Of a stretch of 64,000 nt of DNA, positions 15,645 through 56,290 are shown in pieces (the first letter of the stretch is position 1; each line of letters starts with the position of its first letter). Under the pieces are notes generated by a model. That model saw only the letters and a list, made by a program, of their open reading frames with translations, did not search any database and was not told where the DNA came from. Made by a program: the position numbers and the translations under genes. The stretch is from Spirogloea muscicola. Lineage: Eukaryota. Location: contig WELB01000021.1 in NCBI GenBank assembly GCA_009602725.1, forward strand, positions 940,634 through 1,004,633. The letters run 5' to 3'.

Positions 15645-16160
15645 ATGTCCACATTCGGCAATGACCGACCATGCACGTGTCTGCCAAGCTGCCTGGTGCT
15701 GGCCGACCAGGCAGATGTCTGTTATACCTGCAAAGAGCTGGAATCATCTCACCCAAGCTTCCTGGGCGAACGCGTACCAGGCCTTCAGCTTGCATTCACC
15801 GACGCCCAGCTGAGTGACTGCCTGGTGGAAAGGATTGTATTCCCAAGAGTCCATCAAGCAGGATCAGTGCTTTCAATAGTCATCCCAGATATGAATGTCT
15901 ACAAGAGCCCCCCTTGGCTGCTGCCAGATCTTGACAATACGTCCGGCATAATAACTACCTGTTCCACACCGCGTGGCTTGTTGCTACTTAAACTTGCTGT
16001 TCATGACAGCCTGCCAGCATGTAGCAAAGGGCACAGCTCTTACCCTTATAACACCTAACACAAGGCACAAGTAGGGGCCAAAAGTGATGTGTAAGTATAT
16101 CTCTGCTTTTGTCCTTCAGGCCCTCTTCTACTTGTACCCCAAAAGACAGCTTAACCACTG
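15645..16160 (+). pseudogene. NAC-like pseudogene copy 1 (CxxC + subdomains A/B, remnant of C)
   Basis: DVCYTCKELESSHPSFLGERVPGLQLAFTDAQLSDCL..IPDMNVYKSPPWLLP, a close paralogue of the 35182 copy. Intron donor lost (CCAG|AT); downstream part disrupted by a LINE piece. Confidence 0.8.
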
Positions 16161-16164
16161 TGTA

Positions 16165-16325
16165 TGTGTGGACACTGGTCGATGTGTTGACGCAGTCAGC
16201 TGTCACCACATCGGCGATGATGCGGGGACCGCCGCCGGGCGGGATGGTGACCAGGTCGGTGCGTCGGGTACGGAGCTGGCCGTCCGTACCCAGCTGGATG
16301 GGCGTGATTGAGGTATTTTCCACGG
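16165..16325 (-). mobile_element. RLE-domain fragment of the non-LTR element inserted in NAC copy 1
   Basis: ENTSITPIQLGTDGQLRTRRTDLVTIPPGGGPRIIADVVTADC matches 8930-9070. Confidence 0.9.
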
Positions 16326-17559
16326 CCCCTTTGGAAGAGCTGCTTCTTCATGTAAGAGTCCATATGGTGTCTGTTATGTGCTCTGCATAACAAAAATAAC
16401 AACAAGCTGTAACAAACAATAGCAAGTGCCATCACTTAAAGCAACCGAAGCACCCACATACTAGTAAGCTTGTCTTGCTGGCTTGTCTTGCTTGCTTGCT
16501 AAGCGGGCAGAGGTGTTACTTGCAGTAAGTCGATACCTACTCTAGTTGCATCTCAGAGGGGCTCACGTTGACTTGAACGGAGAGGGGACTGGTAGGCCCG
16601 CTCCAGGCCGTGACTTGAGGCCGGGCCCATAAACAGAAGAGTAGCCGCCATGGCAGCGAGCGCGGCGCCTCGCTGCGGACTTCGCGGCGGCAAGCCCAGA
16701 GCAGAGCAGAGCCCCAGGCCGTGCTTGGCCACGGCACGACGTAGGTCGCCATGTCGAGCGTCATCATCTTCGGCCGTTACTTCCCGCTCCAGCCTCGCCT
16801 CCACCAAGGCCGGCTAATTTTTGCAGCTTATTCACCTGCTCCCTCGCTTCCGCTCCACTTCCTTGCGCTTGCTCCTCACAAGCTCTAGGTCGCGGCTATC
16901 AATCCCACGCCCTCAATGTATCTTCCGCACTTGCGCCTGCGACTGCTCCTGCTCTGTTTTCGCAAGTGTGCCAGGCGAGCACCGATTGTGCCGTCGACTT
17001 CTGCCACAGAAAGGGCCGTGACCTGCCACACAACAGCACCAGATGTGTGGGGGCGCGCGTATTCGACTTCACATCCGCATGGCTTAAATGCTCGCTTCTG
17101 GTATGAGCCATGCCTTTGTCCTTGGCTTGCCGCTGGGGTTTTCCAGTGGGCAACTTCAAGATGGGTGCGGCATAATCTTGCAGGGAGGACATAAGACAGC
17201 TTCATTGTTGTACATTGAGAGCTCAATGCTGTACATGTGAGCCAAGGAGCTTTGGGCTCACAAGTGCGATGGTTCCCATGCGTGAGGCGCCCAGACGGGA
17301 ACTTGTTTTCAGGCACCCTCTGGAGAGAGGTCCTCGTGGATTGGCTGCAGCAATGTACACAGCTGACCTGATCAGCTCTACCAGGTCACTGTGGCCCTGT
17401 GCGTTGCAGCCTCTGGCTTGCGCACCGGGGTTGCTCTTCCTCCCCTCAGCTCATCTGACTTCCTATTGCTGACACGGGGGTACTAAGAGCGCCCTTTTCG
17501 CTTAGCCTGTGGCTCCGCCAACATATTTATGTACCCTCTGTATGCACCTGGTTTGCTTT

Positions 17560-18549: not shown

Positions 18550-19620
18550 CTCAGTGCTGTATGTCCAATGGGGCTTTGGGCTCACAAAGTGCAATGGCCC
18601 CATGTGTGAGGTGCCTAGACATGAACATGTTGCAGGCTCCTTCTGGGAGGAAGACCCTCTTGCTCGTCCTCATCTTCATCCATCAACTGCAGCGACTCAC
18701 AGAGGTGACATTTCTCCACCTGTCATAGTGGCCTTCTGGCCTATTTCCACATGGCTTACTTTGACGGGCCTGGAGCCTTCATTGCTGCTAACTTGATGGA
18801 GCGCTCTGGGATGCTTTTACTGAGGCTGCCAATGCCAAATGCTGATCTGCTACACAGGAAGCCAACATGAAGGGCCGCTGCAACAGTGACACCCCGGCCG
18901 CTGGGCGCTGCAAAGATGATGTTCTCAGACAAGGTTGATGGACACAAGAATGGGCACTAGCAGCAGCGTTTGCAAGCAGCCTCCTATGCATGAGGGAGAT
19001 TGCATGTATGCATACACATGCACAGAGCACAAAGCAGACCGTGGGGCATTGCATAAGCAGCGGCTACTAATAATGTGCAGCTGCAGCAGATAAACCACAG
19101 CCGCTGGGCGATCTGGCCACCTGGCCAGAGAAGTCAAGGTACACAGTATGCGATGTAAGTGAAGTATGCATGTCAACGTGATAGACAAGGACAAGTTGAC
19201 TTTCTCAGGCTGTCCCAGAAAAGGTGTCAGCCGTGTGCTGCAGGGTGCAATGGCTGCTTCCACCTACCCTGCAGGCAGGAGCTGCAGTACCTGACAATCA
19301 AGGATTCCAGTGAGGTAGCGTGCATGGATCTGGCAGTGACAGTGTTACAAACGGCACTTTTAAGGATGAGGGGGGTAAGCGCGGACGGTGAGCTGGCGCA
19401 AGGTCCGGGCCATGTCATAAGCTTCACTGATAGTAGCGACAACGACATGGACAAGGCACAAGTAAGTGCGCACGGGCAAGAATGGTAATGATGGCATGGC
19501 GACTATCAACAACAGCCACGTGGGCAGCAGCTTCAAGTGGTGGCATCATGTGGGCACTGGCCTGCACTTTCGAATGCCTTCTAGGCACTGCGCGTCTACC
19601 TGCCTGCACTGAGCTTCACT
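18550..19620 (+). pseudogene. Decayed copy of unidentified Cys/His-rich 'family X'
   Basis: Nucleotide matches to 58300-58960 on the opposite strand (atgttctcagacaag.ttgatg.acaca; aaggtgtcagccg.gtgctgc; cctgcagg.aggagctgca). The 5' part is also duplicated at ~17220-17400. Confidence 0.55.
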
Positions 19621-22030: not shown

Positions 22031-23226
22031 TCATGAATCTTCAGCTGGTTGCAGAGCTGTGTGCAAGATTTTGCATGAGCCCTTGAACAACAGGACCCTA
22101 ACTGGATTATTTGTCTCATTGCAGAACTTAAACCCACCATCTTGGCAGATGAGGGACAATCTTACCTCCCCAGCATCATGTTCCTGATGATGCTGCATCT
22201 CCTGGAACACCTTGCAGAGTGCTACAGTGAGCTGCACAGCCAAATTGGTATACATTGTTGAGAGGGTCAGCCTAGCTTGGTGACCAGCATGCATCACAAG
22301 ATAGAAGATGCTGCAAGATGCTGGGCACCACAGAGCAATACATATGATACACTAGTATCTGAGGTGCTGGCTTGAAAAAGCCATGACCACGCACAGTGAT
22401 GTATTTGTAGTCGATTTCTTGCATAGAACTCAGGGACTCATCTAATGGGCACTCATAGCAGTGAAGACCTACATCAGGTGCATGATGCCCTTCAATCCCA
22501 GGCCTCCACACGATGTACTGCACCATCATCCACTCTGTTTCGATGGCACCTTGCCATCCATGAAAGTATCGATAGTTGATCCTCCTTCCAATGAGTTCAT
22601 TCTCGTCGTTGACAATGTCCTGCATATTATTATCAAATCTCCATCTGCCAATATTACCCCCAAAAGGACCCCGTGGGCCAACCCTCCTGTCAATGTTGTT
22701 GCCTCCTGGTGTTATCCTCAAGGGGCTGAAGACATGCCAGGGAGGGTCCCTGTTGTGTGGAGGACCTGTTTTTCAAATAAGGTAGCTATGTCCTTGTCAG
22801 TCACGAGACTTGCCATCAAATGTGTGCAATCAAGGGGCCACAAGCAAAAACCATCTAGCAGGCTTCCTGGCCACACATGCATGTTGAGCACATGCACTTT
22901 GTGGGATCAAAGATCTCTGCCAGTCTCTTTGGAGTGAGCCAGCACTGCACAGTGAATGAAAGCAACAGGTTGCACACAACTGGCTGCTTAAGTCCTGTTC
23001 AATTTCAACAATCAATGCAGACACCCTGAAGAAACGCATGCAGAATATAAAGTTGCGCGACACCGACAATGTCCCCAAGATTCGCAGGCTCCCGGGCCTG
23101 CACATCAACCTCAGGTACCAACCTAGTCTCCTCCTCAGTTAGCTGCTCACGGTTGTCATTCCTTCTTCTCAAGAGATAGATAGCCTCGACATCTGTCAGT
23201 TCAAACCGTAAATTATGGGCCATCAA
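22031..23226 (-). pseudogene. NAC-like gene/pseudogene copy 2 (three-exon NAC layout)
   Basis: Exon 1 LRFELTDVEAIYLLRRR..VPEVDV..EPANL; exon 2 PWHVFSP..IDRRVG..GRWRF..LIGRRINYRYF..TEWMMVQY (donor GTAGGT at 22472); exon 3 from 22231 LTVALCKVF. In-frame TAG just upstream of subdomain A; exon-2 acceptor uncertain. Confidence 0.8.
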
Positions 23227-28397: not shown

Positions 28398-30160
28398 ATG
28401 ACCAAGCAGACAGAAGATTGCGACCTTTGCAAACTGCTGGGCAAGGGCAAGCGCATACCAGGCCATATGCTTGACTCAAGTCACGAAGAGCTATTGTACA
28501 CCTGGCTCAAAGACTTGGGTGCCCAAGAGGCCCCCAAGTAGAATCAGATCCTTCGCTACTCACTCCATACATCCCAACTAAGAATGTCTACAAATGCCCC
28601 CCATGGAAATTGCCAGGTCTTGGCATCAAAGCTACTCTCTGGTGCTCATCACATGGCTTCGACTTGCTACTCACAATCTGCTGCCCGCATTTAGTCATGT
28701 CACTATCTTCCAGTCACACCACTTACTTGTGCCTTGCCACTCAGCAAGAGCACTACTTACTTACGCTCTCACATATACTTACGCTCTCACATATCTTCTT
28801 CTCCCAAGTCAGGCCCTTCTCCTTATCTACAAACGTCCTCTAGTCTTACCACTATTTGGTGTGAGCAGTTATTCAGTGTGCTTGTGTCTGCCTCCTCAAT
28901 CCTATCCTTCTCATGCAAACGATCTGGCCTGGACATGCGCAGCAAAAAATGTCAAGGAGATCATGCCTTCTACTACCTTAGTCCTTCTCCTCCCTCAAAG
29001 TGGAAAGATGATAGCCGACGAGGAGACCAATGTGATCGCGTTGCAGGAGTTGGCAGATGGAGAGGAGGAAGAACACCACCAGAGGTAGAGTCTGGTGGAG
29101 TGAAAGGCATAAGAGCGACCTTCAAAGTACTTGACAAAAGGAAGTCCCCACAGTAATCAGACAATGCATGGAGGCAAAGGAGCTTGGATGCTTAAAACCT
29201 GGACAATGATTGAGTATGAGTTGACAAGCAGTGATTCCAAGAAGGTGCAGCCAGCTTTTAGTGTGATATGTCCCTTTCATTTCATGCTCCTGTTCTTGCG
29301 TTGAGATGTGTGCACAACAGAAGCCCACACGCTTGTTTGCAGCGGACAAACTCAGCATTCCTCTGCGTTGACTCTGTGCTGTCCTTGATCCACTGGCTCA
29401 TGTTTTCCTCTTTCTTACCCTTCTTGCACATTTCGCATTCGTTTCTGTATGATTTGGTCGACTGGGTATAATTCAGACTGTGAAGCAGGGACACTTTTCT
29501 TAGTCAGCATTGCTAGAAGTAGCGGCTTTGTATGTTGACGCAGTAAGCAATGTGCTTGACTTACTGTCACTGCTGATGCCACATGTTTGTCTCTGGAGTC
29601 AAGATTTACTTACTACAGCAAGTATCAGCAAGTCTCATATTCCTGTGGAGCCCCGCTGGCAATCTTCAGGCTGAGTACATCCACTGCAGGATATGTGCCA
29701 CGGAAGGGGAAAAGAAAAATCAGGTGAAGAGAAAGTCACATAAAAGTGGGCTGAATGGCAAGGTGAGCTATGTACTCCACGCAGGTTTGCAATTGTCTGC
29801 AGCAGCCAACTCGGTCATTAGTATATCATGCGCAGTCCTTTGCATCATGGCGTTCTTAGTTACCTTCTTTTCATTACGGCTTTACACGGCATGCGGCAAT
29901 CCACAGGAAACCCAGCTGCACCTCAGGCAGGCAAGCCGCTGCAACTTCTGCTGAAGGAGACACATCCAGAACGCGTGACCACAGCACAAGTCGGGTATAA
30001 AAGGTCACAGGAAAGGGAGCCGAGTGGCAAGTTTAAGTATGGAGCAAGGAGCAAGAAAAGATTGGAGTCATCTTATGAAGCCTCACTGTCAATAGAGTAA
30101 GACAATGGAAAAGCTAAGGTGCAAGATGAACTAGCAGATGGAAGTCAGTGTGTGGACTTG
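28398..30160 (+). pseudogene. NAC-like pseudogene copy 3 (decayed 3' exons probably extend to ~31715)
   Basis: MTKQTEDCDLCK..KRIPGH..SHEELL..*..IPTKNVYKCPPWKLP|GT; exon 2 DHAFYYLSP..DRVAGVGRW..GIRATFK..WTMIEYEL with frameshifts and stops; exon 3 AEYIHCRIC. Confidence 0.85.
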
Positions 30161-35181: not shown

Positions 35182-36804
35182 ATGACCTACCAGGCGGATG
35201 TTTGCCAAATCTGCAAAGAGCTGCAGTCGTCCCACCCACTCTTTCAAGGCCAACGCGTCCCAGGCCTTCAGCTTGTATTCAGCGATGCACAGCTGCTTGA
35301 GTACCTGGCTGATAGCCCAAGCATCCGAGGATCTGTGCTTTCGCTTCTCATCCCGTTTAAGGATGTCTACAAGTGCCCCCCTTGGCTGCTGCCAGGTCTC
35401 GGTGACACACGACTACAGATGCTGTCTGTTGCTAATTGCATGGCTGCACTCGCGGTTCACATCTGCATGGCAGCATGTAGTCCTTGGCATTGCTATTTTT
35501 ACCGCAGCATTTGCTTGTGCAAAGGCACTACTCATGCAACAAACTGCTTCTCCATGTCTCAGGCCCGTTGTCCCCGACTCACCCCAAATTTCTACTTTGT
35601 CACTGCTTTTCAACATGGGTAGTAATTCAGTGTCCCTGTTTCTCCTCTCAAGCAAATCATCTGGCTTTGGAATGTGCAGCCAAAGACTGTCGAGGCGATC
35701 ATCCCTTCTACTACTTCAGCCCTTCTCCAACCTCAAAGTGGCACAACAGCATCGGGCGAGCAAATGACTCGGATCGCTCTGCAGGAGGCGGCCGCTGGAA
35801 AAACACGGGAGGAACACCAGCTAAGGTGCAGTCTGCTGGAGTGACAGGCACAAGAAGGACCTACAAGTACTTGTTGGAAGGGGTTGCCCAGAGTGATCAC
35901 TCGATGCATGCATGGAAGGCGTACGACTGGACGATGTATGAGTATGAGTTGACGAGCAAATACATGCAGGGAAGGCAGTCAGCATCACATGGTGTATGTA
36001 CCTTCCCATCCCATGCTCGATCCTCATGCTAAAATTCTGTGCAAAACAGGAGCTCATGTCTTGGTTTGCAGTGCACAGATGCATCACTCCTCTGCTTGCA
36101 TTCCCCTTGAGCCACTGGCTCAACCTTCTCCACACAGAGCCCTCATGCCCATGAACGTTCATTTCGATTGGTACTTCTTTACCTCGATTGTGTCAAAAAT
36201 GAGGCTCAGGAATGACAATTTTGCATTGTGGACCCAGTGAGCACCGTGCTTGAACTACTATCACTGCTAGTGCTACATGGTTATACTGTCTCGTCAGAAG
36301 CTTACTGGCTACAGCTACAATCATGTGGGGCCCTGTTGGTGAATTACAGGCTGATATTATCCTGTACAAATTTTGTGCAAAGAAAGCCCAGCCTTCCCTG
36401 GACAAGTGGCAGGCAAGGTGCAGTCATGACCGCACGCTTGGGTCGATTTTGACACCTTCAAAGCACCTGGCCAATGCACAAGGCGAAGATCATGTATCAG
36501 GCAAAAGGGGACCAGATGGAAACTCGAAGCGCAGACCGTTGCATGCAGTCTCACAGCGAGCCTACTCAGATGGGTATGCTGAAAGTCGCCTGCTAGATGA
36601 AGAAATGCCTGCACATCAGTACCAGGACTTGGTAAGCCATGTACTTCACATTCAAGCTGAAGAGCTCTGCAAGTGTTTCAATTGTCGTCTCGTTGTCAGC
36701 ATGCTTTGCACAGTACCTTTCTTTTCAGCACCATAACTATTAACAAACCACTAGCTGACCATCTGTAGCTGCGGGCGCCAGATGTGCATTACAGCGCTTG
36801 CTGA
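35182..36804 (+). CDS. Divergent NAC-domain transcription factor, potentially intact (~281 aa); exons 35182-35395, 35680-35993, 36350-36631, 36769-36804
   Basis: All three GT-AG introns keep frame. CQIC..QRVPGLQLVFSDAQLLEYL..DVYKCPPWLLP | FYYFSP..DRSAGGGRWKNTG..GTRRTYKY..DWTMYEYEL | ADIILYKF. Intron 1 (after LP, phase 1) and intron 2 (before subdomain E, phase 0) match the usual NAC layout. Last exon is least certain. Confidence 0.85.
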
Positions 36805-39800
36805 AATACCAAGGCCTTGATGTCATCAAGTACATGAATAGAGTGTTGATTTATCAGTGCAAGTGCAGGAGCTATATGTGGATCTACGTCCAAAATTAAT
36901 ACCAGAATCTGAAAGTTTATACCTGAAATCCTGTATGGCTTGTAATAGCAGGGCCAAGATGCCTCGTCTCCAACGAGGTCTCAAACGACACCAATTGCTG
37001 TCTGTGAAGAAGAGGATGTCAAAGAGAGCGCAGCAGACAATATTGAGCATACATGGCCAACTGCATCCACTGCTAGCTTTAGCACAGAGGTCAGGGCCTT
37101 GCCCTGCGAACTCCGTCCATTGAGATTGCCATCTTGTTCATACTTCAATCTGAGCTTATTGTTGTTGAATTTGCCTTTGCTTAAGTACAAGCCACCTCTG
37201 GGCCTCTACTCGATCTGTTGTTGACATCTAAGAAGGAGGTGCTGTCTAGGACAGACCTTCCAAGGTCTGGCTGTATGTCACCCTTATCAGTGTGTGTCAT
37301 AAGCACCGCAAGTCACAGAAAGTAATGTTACAAGTTGCTACTAGCAAGTCAGCAGCAGAGCACGCATGCAGCTCCTGCTCTTTGTACGTGCTAAAAGCAG
37401 TCTGCACCTTATGTCATGCTTTTGAAGGTGACGGTATGCAAATTCTGGAACACTTGCCAGGGGCAAAGTATTCAGGAGGACCATGCAGCCCATTTACTTG
37501 AGACGACTCCTGGTGTCAACATTGCACCACAGGTATACCTGAACTAGTTTCAGCATAAGTAGCATGCTTCTGAAAGCACAGAATGTATCATGTCATATTG
37601 GATATATCGTCTAGTACACTGTTTTGGCCCGCACTTTGTAAGTTTGTCCTAGCTGGTTGAGGCTAAAAGCAAGTGTGCACTCTGAATGTGCACAGTCACA
37701 CATAAGTGGCAGAAGGAGCATCAAGTTACCCACTTGTGACTTTCAAGCCCAAGTAACAGTCAATGAGCAGGTTAGATTGACACTGATTTGGCCTCTAAGT
37801 CTGGAGGTAATTGTCAACATTTTGCAGGATGCAAGCAGAGATTTTGCAGAAGGTGTTGACAAGTTTGCTGGTGGTGAAGAATATGGTGGTGGTGCGAAGT
37901 ATACCAGTGAAGGTTGGGATTTCATCTTATCAACTGACTATGGCGGCTTGACCAACATTTGGCCTGATTACACATCAGAGCTATAAGGTCCCTGAAGTGC
38001 AGATCTTCTTTCAATGATAGCTTGTAAGCCGCCTGCTGGGTTGATTACAACAAGCAAGAGTGTTGAGCTTTTTTTGAAGTCAGGCAATGACTTCAACACA
38101 GACATGAACATATTGTGCCAGGAGGCAAGTCGTCACTTGGCACTTGCTCATGTTGCTGGTTCTTTTAGCAATACTTCCCAGTAGCATCTAAATTCTGAGC
38201 TCTCAACCCTTGATTTCAAATCTAAAAGATGAGGTTTAGCATTGGCATACATTGCAGTCTGCTATCCTGGCTCTTTGATCAATGCACATTAAGCAATTAT
38301 CTCTTCCTGTAAGACAGACATGTATTGTATTCAGCATCTACATATACTGGAGTTTGGGTTGTTATGTGCTTTGTGTCTACAATCTGAGTCCTTCGAACTG
38401 CTTTCTGTTTCCCTGCAGCACTCCCTGGCTGCTGCCTCAGGCTATAGGCGGTGTGACTCCTTTCCATTCTGCGGCTGCTGATTAGAGGTTACTGAGTGGC
38501 CATCTTTGAGGGTAACTTGCGCTTCTGAGTAGTGTACAGTTTGCGAATCCTATAGACAACGTTCATTCTTTGTGGGCTACTTCTTCACAGCAGGAAAGAG
38601 CTCCTTACTCTACATGTACACGTATTTTTGGTCACCACGTGAAGGTGCTTGTGTAGTGTGTAGGCTTTGTGCAGTGCTGTTTGAGGTGGACTGCATGAGT
38701 ACATTCTTAAGGAATACGGTAGTACATGCCAGCTTTTCGAGCTGCTAGTCACAAGAATTGCTACGACAGAGTTATTCCTTAACGATGGTCAGCTTGCCAT
38801 CGGTGTCGGTGTCAGTGACCCTCCACCATGCCCTTGTCCCCATGGCATTGCGACTCATGCATGTATGCACGTCAGGCCTGTTCAGCATTGGTGGTAAGGA
38901 GCAGTATACAGCAGGGACTGGGTCCATCTTGCAGAATGATTTGGACTTCAGGAAATCATCAGATCGCTGATGTGGTTTGATGTATGGAGGGTCGAGATGT
39001 CGCTAAAAAGTCATGCGATGAAGCAACCGGGGATAGTAAGAGGGCAGCGAAAAGCCATCTAAAACCAGGAGACAGGAATGGGGCCAACCATTAGACACTG
39101 ACTCTTCAACCAGCTTCACCAATCTCGCGACCTCTGGCTTCAGCCGCTAGCTGCCACGGGGCTTCCGGATCAACCACAAGCGCAAGGCACCTCATGGCGC
39201 AACTCCTCAGCAGGAACTGGGGACCCTCTCGCTACGCCAACAGTCCAGCCTGCTGCTGAAGGAGAATATACCACCCTTACGGAGAGGGCGGTGTGTGAAG
39301 GGCAGAGCCCAGTAACTAAAAGCCCCACCCTGAAAGCAGAAGAAAAGGTCTTCCAGAAGGGGGCTATTTCTGTGAAAGGCCAGCCAAAAAAAGCACCGGA
39401 CAAAGGTCCGGAGGGGCCGGAAGGCGCAAGCCCACATATCTATGCAAGTGGCTACGAGTAATGGGCGCTCAAAATCTCAACAGACCACACATCCAGCAGC
39501 TCAAGTAGCTGTTAGCGAGAGCCCTCATCAAGGTGCAAGTGAAGTTAAGCCTCTCCAGACCCCTCTCCAGACAAAGGCTCGTACTATAGTACTTACAGTG
39601 CTGTGCAGAAGGCCAGCCCGATATAATATACAAGCTCTGAAGTGGTAGCCCCAACCCCAAAAGACACTACGTAAGGCCTTCTGCCCTTGCCGCGTCGCCT
39701 GAGCGTGGAGGGCACCTCGTTCGTGCCTCCAGAGTGCATCAGCCAGCCTTCCTCTTAACAACTCACTGGCGCTTAACCTCTCGCCATCGTCCCCTTGTTG

Positions 39801-42039: not shown

Positions 42040-43900
42040 TCTTGTCATCGCTTTTTCCATGACAAGAGGTAGTAGAAAACGAAAGAGGTCATGCATTTTT
42101 GGGCTGAGCAAGTGAAGCTTCCGGCCATCTAGATGCTCCAGATTGGTGTTGATTGAGGGAGACCCTTCTTCGGAAGCATAGTGGAGCTCGCACAGATTAA
42201 AGTCATCCTGCAGAAGAACATCTTCTGGTCCATCACCTTGCAGTTATTGCACAGGGAGAAGGGTAAACTACTATGGCCTACTCTGCTGACAAAAACAGAG
42301 CTGGCTGCCTGCATTCTAAGAAATCAAATAGTGATCAATAATAGAGCCAGAGCAAGTTTAAAGCAGGCCATGCATTATATCTATACAGCTTCCACTACAC
42401 ATGCATCAGAGGCTTCTCATAGATTAAATGTGCCCCTTCTGATTGGCTGCTGAGCACGTACGTTATCCACTTCATTTCATGCTTGCTTCCACTCCCTTTC
42501 CTGACCCATGAGACTGAGGCCTCTGTGACTTCATAATGCAGAATGACATTGAAGACCTTAAATTTGTGTGGACTACTTCACTTCGTTACTGTGGGAAATC
42601 AGATATGGATGACGATATATACAGCAATGTGCTCTGTCATCTTGGTAGAGCAACTTGACAAGACAATGGGAAACCACATCACAGTAACTTGGCAGAATCT
42701 CATGTGAGAGGCTGTGACTTTTGATACGGAGAAGTGAAGGCCAAGAAATACCTCACGGTATACTGATGATGCAGTTTCGTGTTAGGTTTGTCTGAAGGGG
42801 CCCTGCCTTCAAGCACCAAGTCCACGGGTTCATCCTCGTCACTTTGGTACATATATGTGCGCTCAAGGACATGCTCATCAGCAAGTTTTATCAACCTAAT
42901 TCTCAGACGCTTCCGCCTGCCATTTCTTGCCTGCATGACTAGAGAGCTCTGTGTCTTTGCATTGAGCATAGAAGTATCTGTCATGCAGCAATCTGCACCG
43001 TCTGCCTGTGAAGAAACATGTTTCAATGTAGCTGACAATATGGGTCAGTCAATCAAGCTTGCTGTCCTCTTTTCGATAATAGATACTGCTCCAGGCACGA
43101 GCTTGAGGCACATCCGTTCTAATCTCTAGTGACTCTTGTCAGAGGAAACATTCCTGGCAGGGCTTCTTTGGAAGGACACAGAGCCTAAGCTACGCAGCTC
43201 CAGGCAGACTCTGATGCATAGGTACAGACTTGCAGATCGATATTGGAGCCCCTCACCAAGCACCACCAGTAGCATGGCTGCATGTCTACTCTTGAGTTCA
43301 TCGAATTTTAACTTGTCAGATCCCATGGTTCAATCCCAAAGACGGCCTTGTCAGAAATGAGCATCTTCTCTTGTTCTGTGAGCTTCCCTGCTGACCGAGC
43401 TTTCAGGTAATGCATTACCAAGTCTTCGTCTGTGGGAACGAATTGGAGGCCCACAACTCGACGGTCTGCACAAAACCAAAGGGTCACATCCTGCTCGGGC
43501 CACAGCTTCACTGTGTAGTTCCACAGTGACTTTTGAAAGACAAAGTAGAATCCTTGCTAACTGCCTTGAGGACAAGAGTAGGGAACGTGGCTTTAAGCAA
43601 GAGACTGGGTGGAGTGCCTGTGCTCGCTGGACTTGTGCTTCCATGCGTGTGCTGATGTACACCATACATGCATTAACTTACTGACTCTATCACAATGACT
43701 GGACAACGAGTGGCCCAATACCTTCTCTCCCAAGTCTTTTGCGGGTGTGTGCAAAGTACCTGATGTGGTCTCCTCTTTGTGCAGTATGCGAGACGGGAAT
43801 GAGTGGCCCAAGACCGTCATTGGAGAGTCCTGCATTAATCGTTCACCTTTCAGATGTTCCAGATGTTGCAGACATTCTGGTCAAAGGCTGCTGGTGGCAA
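42040..43900 (-). pseudogene. NAC-like pseudogene copy 5
   Basis: Exon 43465-43313 RRVVGLQFVPTDEDLVMHYLKAR..ISDKAVFGIEPWDLT is the most canonical A/B subdomain in the window. An upstream exon ending 43847 reads SSL*PECLQHLEHLK in phase; candidate subdomain E DDFNLCEL starts at 42207. Confidence 0.8.
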
Positions 43901-45407
43901 CCGGCACACAGCAGGACTGGAATTAAAGGGACCGGTACTAGTTGAGCTGACGCGTGCAGAGCACAAAGAAAGCCTATGCTTGCATGTACAGCATGTGGCT
44001 CCAACAGGTAGTCAGTAGGTTTGGGGTGTACCATAACAGCAGGGAGTGCTGAGCTCAGCGCACAGTCAGCAGCTCGCAGTATATGAGTTCCAACACTTTC
44101 CTGCACAGCATGCCCGGGCACACTCCATTCACATGAAGTCCGGGGCAATGTTGTGGCTGCATAAGGATCCTGCTTCTCACATTCACCGGGCACCTCATAA
44201 GCACACTCCTCGGTGCTGCTGTCCGTCCTGCGGACCTCTTCACCTCCAAAATGTTGGACAGGATGAAGGTTAGTGCTATCCGGGTGGTCACAGTAGCGAG
44301 CTTCAAACTTCGAAGCGCGCCATATGAGAGACTCACATTACAAGGAGATCTGAAGCTTTGCCAAGACTGTTCGCATGCAACATATTTGAGCTCTAAACCA
44401 GGGAGCTGCTGGAAGTTAAGGTCACTAACTCTAGGCCTGCAGATCCATTGTAGCAGGAGCGAATGTTCTTCCACCATGGCTACTGCAGTGCCTGTTGCTC
44501 CATATACTTCCCGCCTGATGCGCTCGAGTGAGCTTGTGCAATGAACATAGATTGGGGAGACATGACTCCTAGCAAAGGGCAGGGGCTGGTCTTGATTAGC
44601 CAAAGAAGCTTGCACCCGGCTTGAAAAGGAATGCTGCATTCCCATCTCAAAAAATCCCTCGCGCAAGGAGAAGCGTGCGTATTAAGAGATAAACGGCCTG
44701 TGTGGCCAAGTACAAAGGCAAGCACATTGACAAATGTACATCGCCTGCTGCTAAGCTGACCCACTCAGTAACCACGAGTCAGCACATAGAGGTCCCTAAG
44801 TGATGCCCGAATACCGGACGGCAATCGACAAGCTCTTGAGCTACCAGCTGAGGCTCGACCAGCTTTCTAATGCAACGCATGAGCCTGAGCTGGCTGCAGA
44901 CAAGCTGACACTCGACGACGCAAGAATGACAATTAGGCTGTCGGCATGCCCATCTGAGCTGGAAGCATATCCTCACGTCAAGCATATCCCAGACTTGCAA
45001 TATCCTCCTGCAGCATATGGAAACGAAGACCCATGCAGCCGAAAGTGTCAATCGCGGTTCCACAATGGCGCGATAGCCGATTCCTCACGCAAGCGGACCT
45101 CCCAGATGGACGCATTTTGCTCGTTCACACTGAGAGTGATACTTGTGCACAGCAGGACCTGAAATATTAATTCCAGTATATTTTCACAGACAAGATCCAG
45201 ATTTTCCATAAGTGAGGTTTGACACCTGAAGGTCAAGCGACATATGGAAATTCAGCAAGGTCATTGATATTGGCAACCTGAGGCAAGCAACTTTGTCAAG
45301 AAACTTTGATCGATAGGAAGCTTGTCTGGCAGTCAAGCCCTTCATGCCATGCTTCTGACACCTGAAGGCCTAAAGAACCTTGATGCTTTTTTGCCACTTG
45401 CACACCC

Positions 45408-47507
45408 CTATCCAATGACACATAGTAAGCCCAGAACTGCCCACTTGTGAAACATATAGGAACGTGAAGCATTGTAAACGAGAGCTAGATTGTTGTGGCT
45501 ACAAGTTTCAAGCCAATGAGAAAAGATTGCTGCAGTCAACGTCTTTCTGTACTTACAAGGATGCCTCACATAGAACAAAGGCGCACTGCATGGTATTACG
45601 CAAGTATTAAGCCAGAGCCAAGGCTGCCCCTGCTCGAGTGCCAGAGGCCCATCTCTTTCTAAGTCACTCAGTGTCGAGTAATTTCCATATGCAATAACGA
45701 GATCGACGAGCAGTAAGATGCCATTTGCGAACTGTTCGTCCAAGGTGCCCAAACATTCATGAATGGTAAGTTGTCGCTCTTTGATGACATGGTCATAGTA
45801 GCCGTAGCAAGTAATACGTTCGTTAAAGAGGCTTTGCTCCAGGCTCCTCTCATGAGGCTCTGCACATGGCAAGGCTTGCACTGATAGTGAGAGGCCTGCA
45901 ATATCCTCAGCTATCTGCTGGGGACTGCACAAAATGTCCGAGCAACCGACTGAACACCTAAGTAGCGTTTGTAGAGTGCAAACACAGAATCTCAGGAGCA
46001 CCTCTCTTGTGCAGCATCTCCAGCAACTCCACCACAAAAGGCGTCATTGATATACCTGCATGAGGATGATTAACACCATTCACAGCAACATGCCGCCATG
46101 ATGGGTCCTGCCGTTGCAGAGCAGCACGCCACCTATCCCGATGGCCAAGGAGTCTTCTTATAAGGTCGCCCTGAAAAGCAGATGATCCTCTCTCTCACCA
46201 GACTCTCCCACCAAGTGTCGCCGAAAGAAGTAGCTTCCTGTTGAATTTGACAGGCTGATAGGCTTTGGCCCTGCAGTGCCGCGCTGGCTCGCATCCGAAC
46301 CACTCGAACGGCCACGCGACTGACCCTATACCAGCGCACCTGCATCAGGTCTGCTGCAAATCTTGTTTGCGGCAGTGACTTTCGCTGTTGCACCATCCAT
46401 CCTTGCACGACCTTCAGTCTGTCTTCTGAATCTCCTGGACTGTAGATCCTTGATGCTTATTTCCCACTTGCCCTCCCCTATCCAATGACTACCAAAGGAA
46501 GCCCAGAACAGCCCACTCGTGAAGCATATAGGAACGTGAAGCATCTTGCACGAGAGCTAGCTTGTTGTGGCTACAACCTACAAGCCAGTGAGAAAAATTG
46601 CATTAAGACGACAAAGGTCTGTACTTACGAAGATGCCTCACATAGAACACAGGCGCATTGCAAGTAATAGGCCAGAGTCAAGGCTGCCCCTGCTCGAGAT
46701 GCCAGAGAATCATCTCCTCCTAAATCACGCAGTGTCGGTTAATCCCCACATACGATGACGAGATCGACGAGCAGTAGGATGCCATTTGCAAACTATTCCT
46801 CCGAGGCCCAAATATCCATAAACGGTAAGTTGTCGCTCTTCGATGACATGATCATAGTAGCCGTAGCAAGTAACACGTTTATCCAAGAGGCTTTGCTCTA
46901 GGCTCCTCTCATGAGACTTTGCGCATGGCAAGGCTTGCACTGATGGTGAGAAGCCTGCAATATCCTCAGCTATCACTGGGAACTGCACACAGTGTCTAAG
47001 CAACCGACTGAGCACCTAAGTAGCGTTTGTAGAGTGCAAGCACAGAATTTCAGGAGTACCTCCCTTGTGCACCAGGTCCTGCAACTTCACTACAAAGGGC
47101 GTCATTGATTTAGCTGCATGAGGATGACTTGTACCAATTACAGCAGCATGCCACCATGATGGGCTGCTCTGCAACCTGCGGTTGCAAAGCAGCACGCCAC
47201 CTATCCCCATGGCCAAGGAGTTTAGTTAAAAGGTCGCCCTGAAGCGAATGATCGTTTCTCACCAGACTCTCCAACCAAGTGTCGCTGAAGGAAGAAGCTT
47301 CCTGTTGAACTTGAAAGTCTGATAGGCTTTGGCCCTGCAGAGCCGTGTTGGATCGCGACCAAACCACTCGATTGGCCGTGCGACTGACCCTATACCAGTG
47401 CTCCTGCATCAGGTCTGCTGCAACTCCTCTTTGCGGCAATGATATTCTTTGTGGCACAATCTCTCCTTGCGCGAGCTTTAGTCCGTCTTCTGGTCTCCTG
47501 AACTCTA
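45408..47507 (-). pseudogene. Tandem ~1.07-kb duplication of unidentified 'family Y' coding sequence
   Basis: 45409-46444 and 46479-47507 align throughout (offset ~1070); shared peptide IAEDIAG.S.SVQALPCA..HERSLEQSL...R.TCYGYYDHVI.ERQLT; the copies carry different stops and frameshifts. Confidence 0.85.
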
Positions 47508-48591: not shown

Positions 48592-50100
48592 TCATTTGTT
48601 GCAGATAAGGTCAATGAGAGCGTGGCGCTCTCGTGCCATGGCATCCTTTGCGAGAAATGGCAACGAATAAGGGAAGCGCTCATTTCCGATGTCATAATTC
48701 TTTGGGCTGAAGAAGCACCGAAGCGTTGCAACTCTCTTCAGCTGTTCAAGCTTGCCGCTCTTGTCCAGGGTCATGAATTCCTGCAAGTCTGGCGCAATCT
48801 CAATGTCGAAGCTTTCGACGCTCTCCATCACACTTGCTTCTAGCTTTAGTACAAGATCTTCAGCCATGCAGTAATGGGCATGTGCAATAACCTCATCACC
48901 AGCTGGTGTTTGTCTGCAGAAATGAACGCAGCATTAGCTTAAAAGGCATACGCACAAACAAGGGCTGATCATTGATATGCACAAAGACGAGCTGACCATG
49001 GTTGCATACACGTAAAGCAAACCTTGTGACGTTCATCGAAAACTTTTGACAAGCACGCTGACACAGTACGTGCACAGTCTTGACTGCGAAGCTCGCATGT
49101 GCATTGCTCGATGCAAATCGCAATCAGAACATTGGCCAGACCACCAGAGGAAAACCTTACCCAGGTTCTTTCCATATACTTCCTATCCAAGAGTCCATCT
49201 TAGGCAGAATGAAAACACACTGCATGCTTCGTCGAAGACGGTAGGTCAGAGCCAAGGGCTCCCCGTGGATCTCCTCGGCTCTGCAATTGGCTGTAAGGAA
49301 CATAATGACGAGGTCTGCTGCCAAAATTTTGCCACTGGCGAAGTTGGTCCTGACGGTTCCAGCGCTATCGGTGAGCACTATTTTTTTGGCGTCGATGAAG
49401 TAATCGTGATCTGCTGTGGTTCCTACACCGCTGGGGCATGTCCGAAGCGCATCCGTTTCCTCATCCACTGCAGTTGTATGCATTCACGCCTGAACGATGA
49501 GTAGGAGGCCTGACTACTCATTACTGTACTTCACACCGTCTGCGTCGGACAGCTGATTCCACCATCAATTGCTTTTGGCTAGTCGCATGCTACAGTTCAC
49601 CCCGTGACTAACCATTACCTATGTAGTGGAGCTCCTCCAGCATCTGACGGACAAAGGTTGTCTTCCCAAGGCCTGAAGTTCCAATTACAACCACATGACG
49701 CCAGGTCAGATCGCAAGGTGGCAAAGCAGCACGCAGACGGGTCTGCAGGTCCTGCAGAGCTGCCAGGGGCAGTGAAAGGTGGCTCTTTTGGGCTACTGCC
49801 TTCTTCCATTTGCTGCGTGCCTCTTTCGCCTGGCCTTCTGCCACTTGTACTTGCTGATGATAGAGGGTCAATGTTTCTTGCATGTCCTTGGCCTTCTGAG
49901 CTGCCTCATCACTCGCTCTCTGGAGATCGATTGCTGCGTCCCGCAACTCCTTGTCATGCTGGGCCCACATCTCCGCTGATGCTGCTGCTGCTGCCCGACT
50001 TTGTTCTTCCCGTATCTTGTCATTGCGCTTTTGTTCCTCCTCTAAGGCAGCGCACGCCTTGATTGCCTCCTCCTGCAGTGCTCGAAGCTGCACATGAATG
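48592..50100 (-). CDS. Coiled-coil + P-loop (TRAFAC-class) GTPase, IRG/IIGP-like; start and last exons uncertain
   Basis: Coiled-coil LEEEQKRNDKIREEQ..., G1 VVVIGTSGLGKTT, in-phase intron 49618-49468, G2 SGVGTT, G3 LTDSAG, ADLVIMFL, G4 ILPKMD; TATAAG in a GC-rich upstream region (~50760). Confidence 0.75.
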
Positions 50101-51015
50101 TCGAAGTAGTGAGCCACAGCCACTGTCCGTAAATGGCTGGTGAGGAGGCGTGGCCTCGAGGACCTCTGGATATGGGTGTCGGAAGATAATCGATGCAAGT
50201 AGCAACTGTCCTTAATCAAGACACGCAGCACATCATGGCCATGAGTGAATTGGACAGCATGCCATAAGTTATTGTACAAGCTGTTAGCGCAAGCAGTTAT
50301 CCCTGGCAAAGGCAGTCATGGGTAATCGTGCTCTTACCCACAGCAAAATGATCGATGGCTGTCCACCACCCCGGGAACCAAACTAGGCCATGAGAGAGCA
50401 GGTCCAAAGTCTCTCGATCGAGTACCACCGCTTGCGAGATAGTCTAGTCTTGCCTGAGTTGTCCATCATGGGCCCACGTGGCACATGTCAGACCTCAATG
50501 CTCGTTGTCAACGAAGTGGTGAGAAATCTTTTGCTGTGGGAGTGCTTGCGCAGAGCAGAGAATTGACCTGGTGGAGAGATGAGGCGGCCGCTGCCGAGCC
50601 CGGTGGGAAGCGAGACTGCTTGGAGAGGTGTGCTCTGGTGGCGAACGAGGGCCCCGCGAGCTGCAGGCTGTGCAAATGGGCGGCGGGAGAGGAGAGGAGT
50701 GGAGAGGAGAGGGCGGGTGCGGCGGCAGGACGGGCAGGCGAAGGGGCTGGATGAGCGACTTATAGGCAGGTGCGGGCGCCGGGGCGGGGGGGAGATTGGC
50801 GACAGAGACTGCAGCTGGCTGGTATGTGAAGAGCTGGTATGTAAACAGCCAGCCAGCTCGGCGGCGGCAACGGGCTTCGGCCGCCACCGCGGGCGGCCGA
50901 AGGCCCGCCACGGGCACGTGGCAGTGGCGGCAGTGGCGGCCCCCCGTTTCTCCGCCCCGTCATTGGAAAAAGCGTGTACTGAGTAACGGGGGGCCTGAGA
51001 TACGTTCTCGTTTAG

Positions 51016-51950: not shown

Positions 51951-51975
51951 TAAGGTTTAGGGGCTAGGGTTTAGG
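51854..51975 (+). repeat. Two interstitial telomere-like tracts
   Basis: Identical 20-mer tttaggggctagggtttagg at 51854-51873 and 51956-51975. Confidence 0.8.
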
Positions 51976-53029: not shown

Positions 53030-54330
53030 TTGCAGATGCAGGCTGAGGCAGGCCAAAGACAACCATTGGAGTGCCTGCTCTGCGATGTCTTGCAGGAACG
53101 CTTTGACAACATAGAGGTACCTATGGAAGGATCGTGGGTGTGGAAGCTTATTCTCGAGCCCAATGACTCGGAGATTATCGGAGTCCTTCGCAGAAGATCC
53201 ACGAGCACGCTCACCCTTAATGAGAGAAGGCTGTTTCCGGGAAAAAATGTGCATGATCGGCACCCTAGAGAAATTGGATGCATTGGAGGCATGTGCAGTC
53301 ACACCACACATGCACACGTGCACATTGACACTGGTAGGAACTCTCCACTGGGCTGTGGGACACCTCAGAGCACGGAAGCCATGGAAGGATAGCTTGTTAT
53401 TGTGTAAGGTTGTGGGAACAACCTGGCTCATAACAAATTGTCCGTAAGAATTGCAAGTGCTAAATTGTACATATGTATGTAAGCTAGGAAGCCTACAACC
53501 AGGTGCTGCTTGTCTCTACCCCCTAGACCGGATCAATCTTCCTGACACTTCTGACAAGTGCACAGTATGACTCGAATGAGGCCGTGAAACAGGTCGCTGG
53601 TGCAACGGGGGCCACGTCTGGTACTTGTTCAGCCCACTCAGTACCAACATGCAAAAAGGAAAAGTAGAAGTTGAAAGAACAGTTTGAACGATTGGGGATT
53701 GGAAGCAAGACGGAGCCAGTATTGCAGTAATTGACAACAATAAGGTGGTGATTGGGAGGAAGACTTTTCACACATTCGGATTCGCTAAAACAATACACAC
53801 AAGATGGAAGTTGGTGCAGTATGTTAAGGTGGAGGTCACCATCGAGGGTCAGCAAGATTATGTACCTTCTTGCTAAATTGCTTTTAGGCATTTGACTGGA
53901 TTGTTGACATACTGTCAATCTAAAACCTCAAAAAGTATTAACAGTCTGTCCACATGCTGGTTAACTCAAGCACCAGCAAAGTAAATGCAGTATCTCAGAA
54001 AGTATATGCTGTACGTATGGTGCACAGCGTCCTTGAAAATGTGATGCATGTGATGCATGTGGTGGTGATTGGCTGACCAAGGCTCTCCACATTGTCTACA
54101 ATCTCCACTGCGCAGCTCACCACAGCATTCTGCAAGGTCTTCGAGAGGACAGAGAATGCGACCGAAAGGACTGAGCAAGCCCAACCACATCGTCTAGAAA
54201 GCTTGATGCCCAGACCAAGCCATGTTGGAGCAGAGTCAACGCAAGCAGCCACACAGTGTGTCAACAAGGCAGCAAGTAAAGGGAAAGCTGCATGTTGAGG
54301 AAGCAGCTGCGTGATCAGACGTGGACTTGG
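53030..54330 (+). pseudogene. NAC-like pseudogene copy 6
   Basis: ECLLC..WKLILEPNDSEIIGVLRRR..HPREIG; exon 2 GHVWYLFSP..ERTV*TIGDWKQDG..VVIGRKTFHTF..TRWKLVQY (TGA 53685-53687); exon 3 LTTAFCKVF; shares a 3' donor and downstream exon with copies 3 and 4. Confidence 0.88.
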
Positions 54331-55165
54331 TGAGCCAGTTACTTTACTGCAGCTAAACGTCTCTGGACGTGCTTGCAGGTCTCCTGTTTAATGCAAGCTG
54401 TGTCCAGGTCTTCGCTCCACTTGATGCAGCCAATAAAAGATTGAAAAGCTGCAGGAAGCGTCTGTAGCTGCGGGCGCTGATGTGTGTGTTCGGCTCTTGA
54501 AAGTTTCACAAATACCCGATAGTGTATCTTTTCTTGCATTTGCCTTCTCTCGGATGTCTTACATAAGCTTGTACAAGGTTTCTGCCTTTCTGGTAGCTAG
54601 ATATTTGATGGTACAGCACTGACATCTACAAAGGAGTTGTTGTCTAAAAACCAGGACACTGTGCTTATGGGTGTTTCTATGACTCCCGATGGCAGTGTCG
54701 CACCTAAGGTACTCTATCCACATTGCTTGAGCAACAAAGTGAGAGAATCTTATATGCACAAGCCCAACTATGTACAGCCCGACTATGTACATGTCTATCC
54801 ACTGTCTTGGCCCATGCTTTAGAGGTGCTATCTGGCGGGTCTTTGGTCTGTCAGGTTGTATTGAGATTGGTTATCACCCGCAAAGTACAGACAAGTGGCA
54901 GGATGAGTACTAAGCATCATGCAAGCTCAACTGACGATCTAAGAAGCAGAATCAACCTTACAGCAGAACCTGGCTACTAAGTCGGTGCTGAAGTTTGCAC
55001 ATGCAGGTTCCAAGTAGAGAACCTTCAGGAGTTGATGGGGCTCACAGCAATGAAGATGAGGAAAGGAAAAACATATCAAAGCTAACAAAACCTCAGCACC
55101 TGTACTTTCTTCAATATCATAGTACCTTGCTACAGATTGAAGACTGACTGACTTGCGTCAAATAG

Positions 55166-56290
55166 TTGGCCGAACATCATCTCTACAACTATTGCGGATG
55201 TCTCGCTTGTTGCAGGTGCAGCCAGAGTCAGAAACAGCCTTATGGCCCAGATATGGAGTCCCTGCGCTGCCACCATGTTTATCCAGGCCTTCAACGAAAC
55301 GTGGCCAACAGTGGGATACCTCTGGGTAGCTCGTGGAGACTCACGTTTGAACCCACTGATGTTGAGGCAATATTTTACTGAGGAGAAAAGTTGACCCGCA
55401 CGCACAGCTTACTGTGGAGGAGATGGCGTTGATTCCCCAGGTAGATGTTCATGCCGGAGAGCCTGCAAACATTGGAGGTATGCACAGTGTCCTTCCGCGA
55501 GAATCAACCAGTTGAATCTCCTGTGCTGCTGTTAGAGTACTGACCAATAATGCGTAGCGTATTCTCTCAAAGACCTTGCAGTGCTGGCTCATATAAGTAC
55601 TGACCTTGACCCCCACAAGTTGATGAGTCAGGGATGATAGGTGCCTGCTATCAAGAACATAGTGCTTTGTCCCCATTTGTAGCACAGCTTTCAACATCAA
55701 CTTTGTGACTGACAAGAAACATCATGCTCGATGACAAACAGGTCAGGATTGTCTTGGGGGCCATCCCTGGCATGTCTTCAGCCCTTTGAGGAGTACAGAA
55801 GGAGGCGACTTTGGCTGGATGTTGGGTAAGACAGGGAGATGGATGGATCAGGACGATTCGTTTTATCTTATTCTTGACCACGAGCATAAAAACATTGGGA
55901 GTAGGAGCAGTCTTCAGTACTACAATGGACAGCACTTGACAAATTGGAGGATGTGGCAGTACGTTGTGTGGAGGCCAGGTTGGAACGGATGTTCTGAAGC
56001 AGATGTAGGTCTCAGCTGCTCTGAAATGCCTACGACAATGACCGCCTCCTTGCCGAGTATGCATGGACATTACAACAGCCTCATTTGCGTGCATGTTCAG
56101 GCTTTCGCACGGCAAGAACCTGCACAGTGCAGGTGTCAGTTCCTCATTTTTGTTGTCTGTGATGCCTCAATCTGCAGCGTCTTGTCGTGCATGCTGATTA
56201 CGAAGCTAGGCTGACACTCTCACTGTCTACCACTCCCACTGTGCAGCTCACCTTAGCACTGTGCAAGGTGTTTGATGGGACCCAGCATCT
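55166..56290 (+). pseudogene. NAC-like pseudogene copy 7 (close paralogue of copy 2)
   Basis: WRLTFEPTDVEAIF(frameshift)LRRK..IPQVDV..EPANIG|GT; GGHPWHVFSP..GRWMDQ..NIGSRSSLQYY..TNWRMWQY; exon 3 LTLALCKVF. Confidence 0.88.

What the first reader, a model, noticed from the sequence alone, without database searches (positions are those of the whole stretch)
15645..56290. Island of 7-8 highly divergent CxxC-NAC genes with a hypervariable DNA-recognition strand
Seen: seven clear NAC-like loci (15.6, 22.0, 28.4, 35.2, 42.0, 53.0, 55.2 kb) and one faint one in about 40 kb. Most keep the usual NAC intron layout, but the normally conserved subdomain-C 'WKATG' reads WRFDN, WRGGR, WKNTG, WKQDG and WMDQD in different copies. 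Most carry a CxxC motif before subdomain A (CYTC, CDLC, CQIC, CLLC, [C>*]PEC). Known: WKATG is the major-groove-contacting strand, and SOG1-type NACs have an N-terminal CPxC motif. Inference: a lineage-specific, fast-turnover NAC family that is diversifying DNA specificity or acting as decoys/sensors, rather than ordinary TFs.
Basis: partly seen in the sequence, partly recalled or inferred. Interest (0 to 1): 0.85.

Follow-up and report, generated by a model that had tools for sequence, protein, structure and literature searches.

The report
Decaying algal NAC cluster, GTPase-fused subtype
An alga closely related to land plants carries a cluster of seven unusually divergent NAC transcription-factor genes, five of them broken, so the varied DNA-reading motifs likely reflect general fast drift and decay rather than targeted diversification, though one subtype is predicted to be fused to a degenerate GTPase domain.

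Summary
The window is Spirogloea muscicola scaffold s21. Seven NAC loci are real; I found no eighth. Only the 35.2 kb copy (WKNTG) is clearly intact. Five carry stops, frameshifts or lost exons, and one (WRFDN) depends on a weak splice donor. The WKATG strand is not hypervariable: it matches the canonical consensus at 10 of 25 positions, against 108 of 271 for other conserved NAC columns (p=1.0). Pairwise dN/dS is 0.39-0.80. WRGGR arises from a one-codon deletion in a pseudogene. The CxxC is homologous in 4 of 7 loci; '[C>*]PEC' is unsupported. So this is most likely a lineage-specific, fast-turnover (birth-and-death) NAC family, with paralogues on s264, s348, s25 and further along s21. Annotated open models keep the base-reading Lys (6 of 6) but vary at the Thr. 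Two paralogues of the 42 kb locus keep a WKGCS NAC 91-93% identical while their flanks are about 60%. The fusion rests on automated gene models.

The parts
15661..15927 (+). Locus A: NAC exon 1 only (CYTC, subdomains A-B); pseudogene fragment
   Evidence: 93% identical over 83 aa to SM000348S12864 (P0003), whose first 10 residues match in another frame; donor position reads AT; no exon 2 in the window; repeat fragment at 16186-16331
22166..23223 (-). Locus B: three-exon NAC (WRFDN), CxxC segment deleted; possibly intact
   Evidence: NAM 17.6 and 22.3 bits; homologous donor lost, open through exon 3 with the weak donor after 23064; deletion against G
28398..29260 (+). Locus C: NAC pseudogene (CDLC; WRGGR = one-codon deletion)
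   Evidence: TAG 28539, TAA 29154, frameshifts; one contig with 0-1 differences spans it in three DNA runs of one sample; its automated model SM000021S06516 has no NAM hit
35182..38970 (+). Locus D: intact CxxC-NAC gene (CQIC, WKNTG); exons 35182-35395, 35680-35993, 36350 onward
   Evidence: Open through subdomain E; model SM000021S06515; paralogue SM000264S09754 92% identical over exon 2, NAM 48.1 bits; a contig of run X5 joins across intron 1
42127..43469 (-). Locus E: NAC domain of the GTPase-like-NAC subtype; pseudogene
   Evidence: NAM 31.9 bits; frameshift at about 42917 and TAG 42896; collinear with P0023 and P0040
43660..44660 (-). Exons between the GTPase-like domain and the NAC domain of locus E
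   Evidence: 44660-44424 and 44181-43987 match P0023; donor GT after ...ICRPR where the stand-alone GTPase gene ends
45374..47507 (-). Two tandem, frameshifted copies of the degenerate GTPase-like domain upstream of E
   Evidence: 1.07 kb direct duplication at 82.8%; matches residues 29-267 of P0023; frames broken
48592..50469 (-). Intact coiled-coil + P-loop GTPase gene (SM000021S06528, P0175)
   Evidence: Open three-exon frame from 50090; 100% match to the model; motifs GTSGLGKT, DSAG, PKMD; ESM Atlas nearest clusters MMR_HSR1/AIG1/Dynamin_N, score 0.93; homologous to the N-terminal domain of P0040, E 3e-11
53036..54181 (+). Locus F: CxxC-NAC pseudogene (CLLC, WKQDG)
   Evidence: TGA 53685 in exon 2; HMM 23.1 bits joined; subdomain E exon at 54116
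55217..56312 (+). Locus G: NAC pseudogene (SLRC, WMDQD)
   Evidence: Frameshifts and TGA 55379 in exon 1; NAM 20.8 bits for exon 2

Best explanation
The island is a cluster of seven divergent NAC genes of Spirogloea muscicola, five of them broken, that likely evolves by repeated local duplication and loss under weak purifying selection, so the different WKATG spellings likely reflect domain-wide drift and pseudogene decay rather than selection on the recognition strand. Shown: NAC homology; the lesions; three subtypes (A/C/D, B/F/G, E); paralogues on other scaffolds; equal divergence of the strand and the rest of the core. Inferred: an ancestral canonical-type NAC gained a short CxxCxxL leader, was copied by tandem, inverted and segmental duplication (the genome triplication probably added copies), and most copies died. 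The survivors (D, its s264 paralogue, and the E-type models P0023 and P0040) likely still act as DNA-binding transcription factors, since they keep the base-reading Lys and a basic pair in subdomain D. The E type, with Cys in place of the base-reading Thr, would read a shifted site. The E type likely also carries an N-terminal degenerate GTPase-like domain taken from the neighbouring GTPase family.
For: Five of seven loci have lesions, and C's are not assembly errors. Strand 10/25 vs other conserved columns 108/271, Fisher p=1.0; for six annotated open models 18/30 vs 147/309, p=0.25. dN/dS for six pairwise comparisons is 0.39-0.80; the three B/F/G intervals exclude 1 and the three A/C/D intervals include it. 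C-D exons are 72% identical at DNA level, against 72% and 70.5% for their introns. B-G homology extends as an inverted duplication (21.4 kb vs 57 kb, 19 kb vs 58.6 kb). The tail of model P0040, about 46 kb further on s21, differs from window 52297-52512 at 1 of 72 residues. Scaffold s264 holds a D-type and an E-type model; s348 holds an A-type model and a GTPase paralogue. TAPscan lists 24 NACs in S. muscicola, against 5 in Zygnema and 6 in Mesotaenium (PMC11712027 supplement 9).
Against: Open models vary at the base-contacting Thr (T, T, M, C, C, D), which is T in 130 of 133 canonical rows; ORE1 Thr104 reads a base (PMC10203392 passage). P0023 and P0040 are 93% and 91% identical in the two NAC blocks but 62% and 60% in the flanks, which argues for real constraint on a non-canonical NAC, or for gene conversion. 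dN/dS averaged over dead and living branches can hide episodic positive selection, and only within-window pairs could be measured. B may be intact. Summed contig depth is about 3x baseline over B and 4-6x over D (the tool warns this is no copy number), so unseen copies may exist. Lesions in A, E, F and G were not checked against reads.
Confidence: 0.68

Rival explanations
1. Adaptive diversification of DNA specificity: the family is being selected to read new DNA sites through changes in the WKATG strand.
For: All six open annotated models keep W-K but differ at the Thr position. The E-type NAC is much better conserved than its flanks. B (WRFDN) may be intact.
Against: The strand is no more diverged than other conserved columns. 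Three of the five named motifs are in pseudogenes, and one is an indel artefact. No pair has a dN/dS point estimate above 1.
Confidence: 0.17
2. The cluster is a defence or stress module: an active coiled-coil GTPase and a pseudo-GTPase-NAC fusion form a pair, in which the degenerate domain binds the active GTPase (or a pathogen factor aimed at it) and gates the NAC output, or the NAC acts as a decoy.
For: The G-like-then-NAC order occurs at three places (window E, s21 further on, s264). GTPase paralogues lie on s21, s348 and s408, the s348 one next in gene number to an A-type NAC. ESM look-alikes include AIG1, IIGP and Dynamin_N clusters. Fast turnover in clusters is typical of immune loci (own knowledge).
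Against: No NB-ARC or LRR hit in P0023 or P0040. The fusion rests on automated models whose C-terminal ends are visibly chimeric, and a conserved Met in the linker (DMRRG) could start a NAC-only gene. The GTPase family is not assigned above any Pfam cutoff.
Confidence: 0.1
3. The genes are degenerate SOG1-type NACs whose CxxC is the SOG1 N-terminal cysteine motif, and they act in the DNA-damage response.
For: CxxC 16-20 residues before the subdomain A glycine resembles the SOG1 spacing (recalled, not from a call). None of 143 other hits has a CxxC there.
Against: No protein among the 150 best hits has the recalled SOG1-type WHKTG strand, and the named non-Spirogloea hits are labelled as ordinary NAC or uncharacterised proteins. 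The D leader is about 25 residues, against 40-45 in SOG1, and the tails hold 0-2 SQ motifs against five (PMC10980851 passages). The E type has the CxxC after the domain.
Confidence: 0.05

Closest known systems
Canonical NAC transcription factors (Pfam NAM PF02365; ANAC019, PDB 1UT4/3SWM; rice SNAC1, 3ULX; ORE1, 7XLJ)
   Same: NAM hits above cutoff for the open models (39.9-80.4 bits); sequence match to ANAC019 at E 4e-8 for P0001 and 2e-12 for P0040; three-exon layout; W and K of the strand and W-x-x-x-E-Y of subdomain D kept in most open models.
   Different: Only 28-64% of the highly conserved columns are kept, against 97% for the canonical S. muscicola NAC P0016. The D-type dimer arm reads PGLQLVFSDAQLL instead of PGFRFHPTDEEL. 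A CxxCxxL lies before the domain (A, C, D, F) or after it (E type, P0109). The E type has an insertion of about 45 residues in subdomain D and a predicted N-terminal GTPase-like domain.
SOG1/ANAC044/ANAC085-type NACs
   Same: An N-terminal leader before the NAC domain (PMC10980851 passages); the cysteine pair in it is recalled, not seen in a call.
   Different: Shorter leader, no SQ cluster, no SOG1-type strand; not tested in a tree.
TRAFAC P-loop GTPases of the MMR_HSR1/AIG1/dynamin-like kind
   Same: P0175 has G1, G3 and a G4-like motif, follows a long coiled coil, and its nearest ESM Atlas clusters are of this kind.
   Different: No Pfam family reaches its cutoff, and there is no PDB match. 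The NAC-linked copies have lost the P-loop signature.
NLR integrated-decoy fusions
   Same: An NTPase-type domain joined to a transcription-factor domain in a fast-turnover cluster (analogy from own knowledge).
   Different: No NB-ARC or LRR hit; the domain is GTPase-like and degenerate.

Membership tests
NAC (NAM, PF02365) | NAM profile match above the curated cutoff | tested here: met
   P0001 48.1, P0003 39.9, P0023 80.4, P0040 76.4, P0109 55, D exon 2 31.7, E exon 31.9 bits vs cutoff 27. A, B and G exons fall below cutoff and C and F pieces give no hit alone, but joined models of B, C, F and G match a canonical NAC HMM.
NAC (NAM, PF02365) | Homology to solved NAC domains | tested here: met
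   phmmer against PDB: ANAC019 E 4e-8 (P0001); SNAC1 E 6e-13 (P0040).
NAC (NAM, PF02365) | NAC fold in a predicted model | tested here: inconclusive
   Single-sequence AlphaFold2 of P0001 had mean pLDDT 39.
NAC (NAM, PF02365) | Three-exon layout (A-B / C-D / E plus tail) | tested here: met
   B, D, F and G; intron 1 of the D type is joined in a contig of run X5. The layout as the family norm is own knowledge.
NAC (NAM, PF02365) | WKATG strand with base-reading Lys and Thr (ORE1 K102, T104) | tested here: inconclusive
   Lys kept in 6 of 6 open models, Thr in 2 of 6 (D and P0001); both lost in B, C and G.
NAC (NAM, PF02365) | Dimerisation and sequence-specific DNA binding | not testable with these tools
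   Needs biochemistry; the complex predictor was not available.
SOG1-type NAC | N-terminal extension of about 40-45 residues | tested here: not met
   About 25 residues in D and P0001; 39 in P0003, owing to a repeated CxxC segment.
SOG1-type NAC | Five C-terminal SQ motifs | tested here: not met
   0-2 SQ in five tails examined. Weak test: moss SOG1 has two, and ANAC044/085 have none.
SOG1-type NAC | Phylogenetic grouping with SOG1 | not tested
   No SOG1-type sequence was among the session's proteins.
TRAFAC GTPase (P0175) | G1 GxxxxGKT, G3 DxxG, G4 NKxD | tested here: inconclusive
   GTSGLGKT, DSAG and PKMD are seen. MMR_HSR1 18.2 bits is under the 21.9 cutoff. ESM Atlas 0.93 with 150 of 256 shared features. 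The fold model failed in this domain.
NLR with integrated domain | NB-ARC/NACHT plus LRR | tested here: not met
   Pfam on P0023 and P0040 gives only NAM above cutoff.

The most novel reading that the evidence does not exclude
Spirogloea has built a GTPase-gated transcription switch: a pseudo-GTPase-NAC fusion with a rewired recognition strand (WKGCS) and its own CxxC, paired with an active coiled-coil GTPase from the same cluster and turning over like an immune locus. It would be a receptor-to-transcription module unknown in land plants, in their closest algal relatives. The fusion alone being a real transcript I put at about 0.6; the full gated-switch or defence reading is lower.
Probability: 0.15. 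Interest if true: 0.8.

Novelty: new variant of a known kind. Interest (0 to 1): 0.45.

Why it matters
NAC counts in Zygnematophyceae are used to argue about how land-plant regulatory networks arose. This locus shows that part of the high count in S. muscicola may be a private, fast-decaying clade rather than retained triplicates of ancestral NACs, and that automated models here are truncated or chimeric. It also yields natural variants at the base-reading Thr, and a candidate GTPase-like-NAC fusion that a few RT-PCR and DAP-seq experiments could test. The headline claim of a hypervariable recognition strand does not hold.

Tried and rejected
No whole genome is held for this window, so genome-wide paralogue DNA and site-wise dN/dS could not be had. 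AlphaFold2 gave unusable models for P0001 (pLDDT 39) and for the GTPase domain of P0175 (below 50 over residues 172-302); Foldseek on the latter found nothing at E<=0.001. The complex predictor was not available, so the idea that two CxxC pairs bind one zinc across a dimer is untested. My first impression that P0175 is EF-2/Snu114-like was by eye; PDB searches gave no such hit and GTP_EFTU scored only E 0.49, so I dropped it. The ESM Atlas gave no usable hit for the degenerate domain of P0040. No relatives of the GTPase were found in prokaryote genomes or viral contigs, nor of D exon 2 in metagenomes; these find close matches only. The run search listed no holder on record as RNA, which is no evidence on expression. 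An eighth locus was sought and not found. '[C>*]PEC' was rejected as a homologue of the CxxC leader. A read-level check of loci A, E, F and G was not obtained. Earlier scan findings: five look-ups, none relevant. Known flaws in my scripts: exon 3 of G was in the wrong frame (corrected for dN/dS; tree not rebuilt), and the D model carried one extra codon at intron 1. The tree used 34 of the 133 canonical domains; 10 of 143 hits were dropped because my pattern did not extract a domain. Literature: eight answered searches and a gene-id search showed no paper on this cluster or on a GTPase-NAC fusion. The original genome paper and its supplements were not seen and may list these genes.
Full report
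Identity of the window. A protein search with exon 2 of the 35.2 kb locus returned two EukProt models, both recorded as Spirogloea muscicola. SM000021S06515 matches the window at 100% over exon 1, which places the window at about s21:940,634-1,004,633. No assembly file was available. S. muscicola is described as having a genome triplication (PMC11712027, passages). Its supplement 9 lists 24 NACs, against 22 in Penium, 5 in Zygnema and 6 in Mesotaenium (rows seen).

Observation. All named motifs are at the stated loci. Seven loci are NAC-derived by Pfam, by a canonical NAC HMM built from 133 domains, and by PDB sequence matches. Locus A alone scores weakly (8.9 bits) but is 93% identical to an annotated NAM-positive paralogue. 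No eighth locus was found.

State of each copy. D is open from its ATG through subdomain E. A has only exon 1, with a dead donor and a frameshift against its paralogue. C, E, F and G have in-frame stops, and C, E and G also have frameshifts. C lies in one contig with 0-1 differences in three DNA runs of one sample, so its lesions are not assembly errors; that sample may be the source of the assembly. B lost the homologous donor but reads through with a weak one. A 446-base contig of run X5 (RNA by guess) joins exon 1 to exon 2 of a D-type gene at the predicted intron, with 15 differences and 6 gap letters. It is therefore likely a spliced transcript of a paralogue or orthologue, not of the window's copy.

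Is the strand hypervariable? On alignment to the canonical model, the five window copies that have the strand match WKATG at 10 of 25 positions and the other highly conserved columns at 108 of 271 (Fisher p=1.0). Six annotated open models (one of them, P0003, ends inside subdomain D) give 18 of 30 against 147 of 309 (p=0.25). The whole domain has drifted, not the strand in particular. WRGGR is a one-codon deletion relative to WKNTGG. Pairwise dN/dS is 0.39 (B-G), 0.55 (F-G), 0.44 (B-F), 0.52 (A-D), and 0.57 and 0.80 (C-D blocks); the intervals are wide, and the three A/C/D ones include 1. C-D exons and introns are equally alike at about 72%. This is the pattern of relaxed selection followed by decay.

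What survives of the specificity idea. In ORE1, Lys102 and Thr104 of the strand read bases (PMC10203392, passages). Canonical rows have K in 131 and T in 130 of 133. The six open models keep K but show T, T, M, C, C and D at the Thr position. The two E-type models are 93% and 91% identical in their NAC blocks but 62% and 60% in the flanking regions. A non-canonical NAC is therefore probably being maintained in at least one subtype, though gene conversion could give the same pattern.

The CxxC. It is homologous in A, C, D and F, degenerate in G and deleted in B. It is absent from this position in all 143 other hits. A CxxC occurs by chance in 6% of stop-free 30-residue windows here; the four cases are not independent, as they come from two subtypes. 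The A-type paralogue has the segment twice (CQAC...CYTC). E-type models and SM000025S08474 have a CxxCxxL-like motif after the NAC domain instead. A single pair cannot bind zinc alone (own knowledge), so a shared site across a dimer, or a redox role, is possible but untested. The SOG1 parallel is not supported by leader length, SQ content or strand sequence (PMC10980851 and PMC6449083, passages), but no SOG1 sequence was available for a tree.

Family structure. An HMMER search of 1.84 billion representatives with a profile of the window's exons gave 1,760 hits at E<=0.001 and listed 150. Of the 22 listed hits for which I have names, 8 are S. muscicola, 7 divergent and 1 canonical; the rest are land-plant or unnamed NACs. 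No B/F/G-type model appeared. In a tree of 46 rows the 12 divergent rows fall on one side of a branch (100/97) in the groups A/C/D, B/F/G and E, with P0109 loosely placed; the tool warns of long-branch joins. Six open models alone also group (95.5). Related models lie on s264 (D type and E type), s348 (A type and a GTPase), s25, s408 (a GTPase) and about 35-45 kb beyond the window on s21.

The GTPase link. Locus E is the 3' part of a longer unit. Upstream lie two frameshifted copies of a domain that also begins P0023 and P0040, two models 56% identical over 1,067 aligned columns. That domain is homologous to an intact three-exon coiled-coil P-loop gene at 48.6-50.5 kb (E 3e-11) and has lost the P-loop signature. 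The intact protein looks like an MMR_HSR1/AIG1/dynamin-type GTPase by language-model features (0.93) but passes no Pfam cutoff. For the fusion: the same order in three places, an alignable linker, a splice donor where the stand-alone gene stops, and a NAC exon that starts at an acceptor. Against: both models have chimeric tails, a conserved Met in the linker could start a separate NAC gene, and no transcript was seen. I put the fusion at about 0.6.

Mechanism and verdict. Most likely this is a birth-and-death cluster of a private NAC clade, whose few living members still bind DNA, the E type probably at a changed site and perhaps under the control of a degenerate GTPase-like domain. Homology, lesions and divergence patterns are shown; DNA binding, zinc binding, the fusion transcript and any defence role are inferred or untested. 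The genes are NAC family members, not shown to be SOG1-type, and not NLRs. I found no paper on the cluster (search listings, plus passages of PMC11473775, PMC9675596 with its two supplements, and PMC11121595), but the genome paper and its supplements were not seen. Novelty: new variant of a known kind; interest 0.45.

Noticed in passing
window 694-1572 (+): Single open frame with a WRKY domain (77 bits) reading WRKYGRK rather than the usual WRKYGQK (usual form as quoted in PMC10203392); another variant transcription factor 14 kb from the island.
   Followed up: no
window 48592-50469 (-): Intact coiled-coil + P-loop GTPase gene with only two database relatives found, both S. muscicola (s348, s408); family not assigned.
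   Followed up: partly
window 52297-52551 and 54073-54132: Near-identical (71 of 72 and 19 of 20 residues) to the annotated tail of SM000021S06534, about 46 kb further along s21, the second stretch being antisense to locus F's third exon; implies a recent segmental copy with another F-type locus beyond the window.
   Followed up: partly
window 18868-23223 vs 55217-58818: Patchy inverted duplication linking loci B and G and their downstream DNA at 65-76% identity.
   Followed up: partly
window 8000-14000, 16186-16331, 60800-61400: GC-rich retroelement debris: a copia-type gag hit with a weak reverse-transcriptase hit at 11928-13427, and a repeat that resembles the endonuclease end of CRE-type elements (label recalled), one piece lying just after locus A.
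   Followed up: no
window 35182-36031, model SM000021S06515: The automated model skips the second half of exon 2 (subdomain D) although the frame is open, and adds upstream exons; the model for C (SM000021S06516) stitches around stops. NAC counts from this annotation may be unreliable.
   Followed up: partly
   Followed up: partly
window 21985: All contigs of three DNA runs read T where the window has G: a probable single-base assembly error in the tail of locus B.
   Followed up: no
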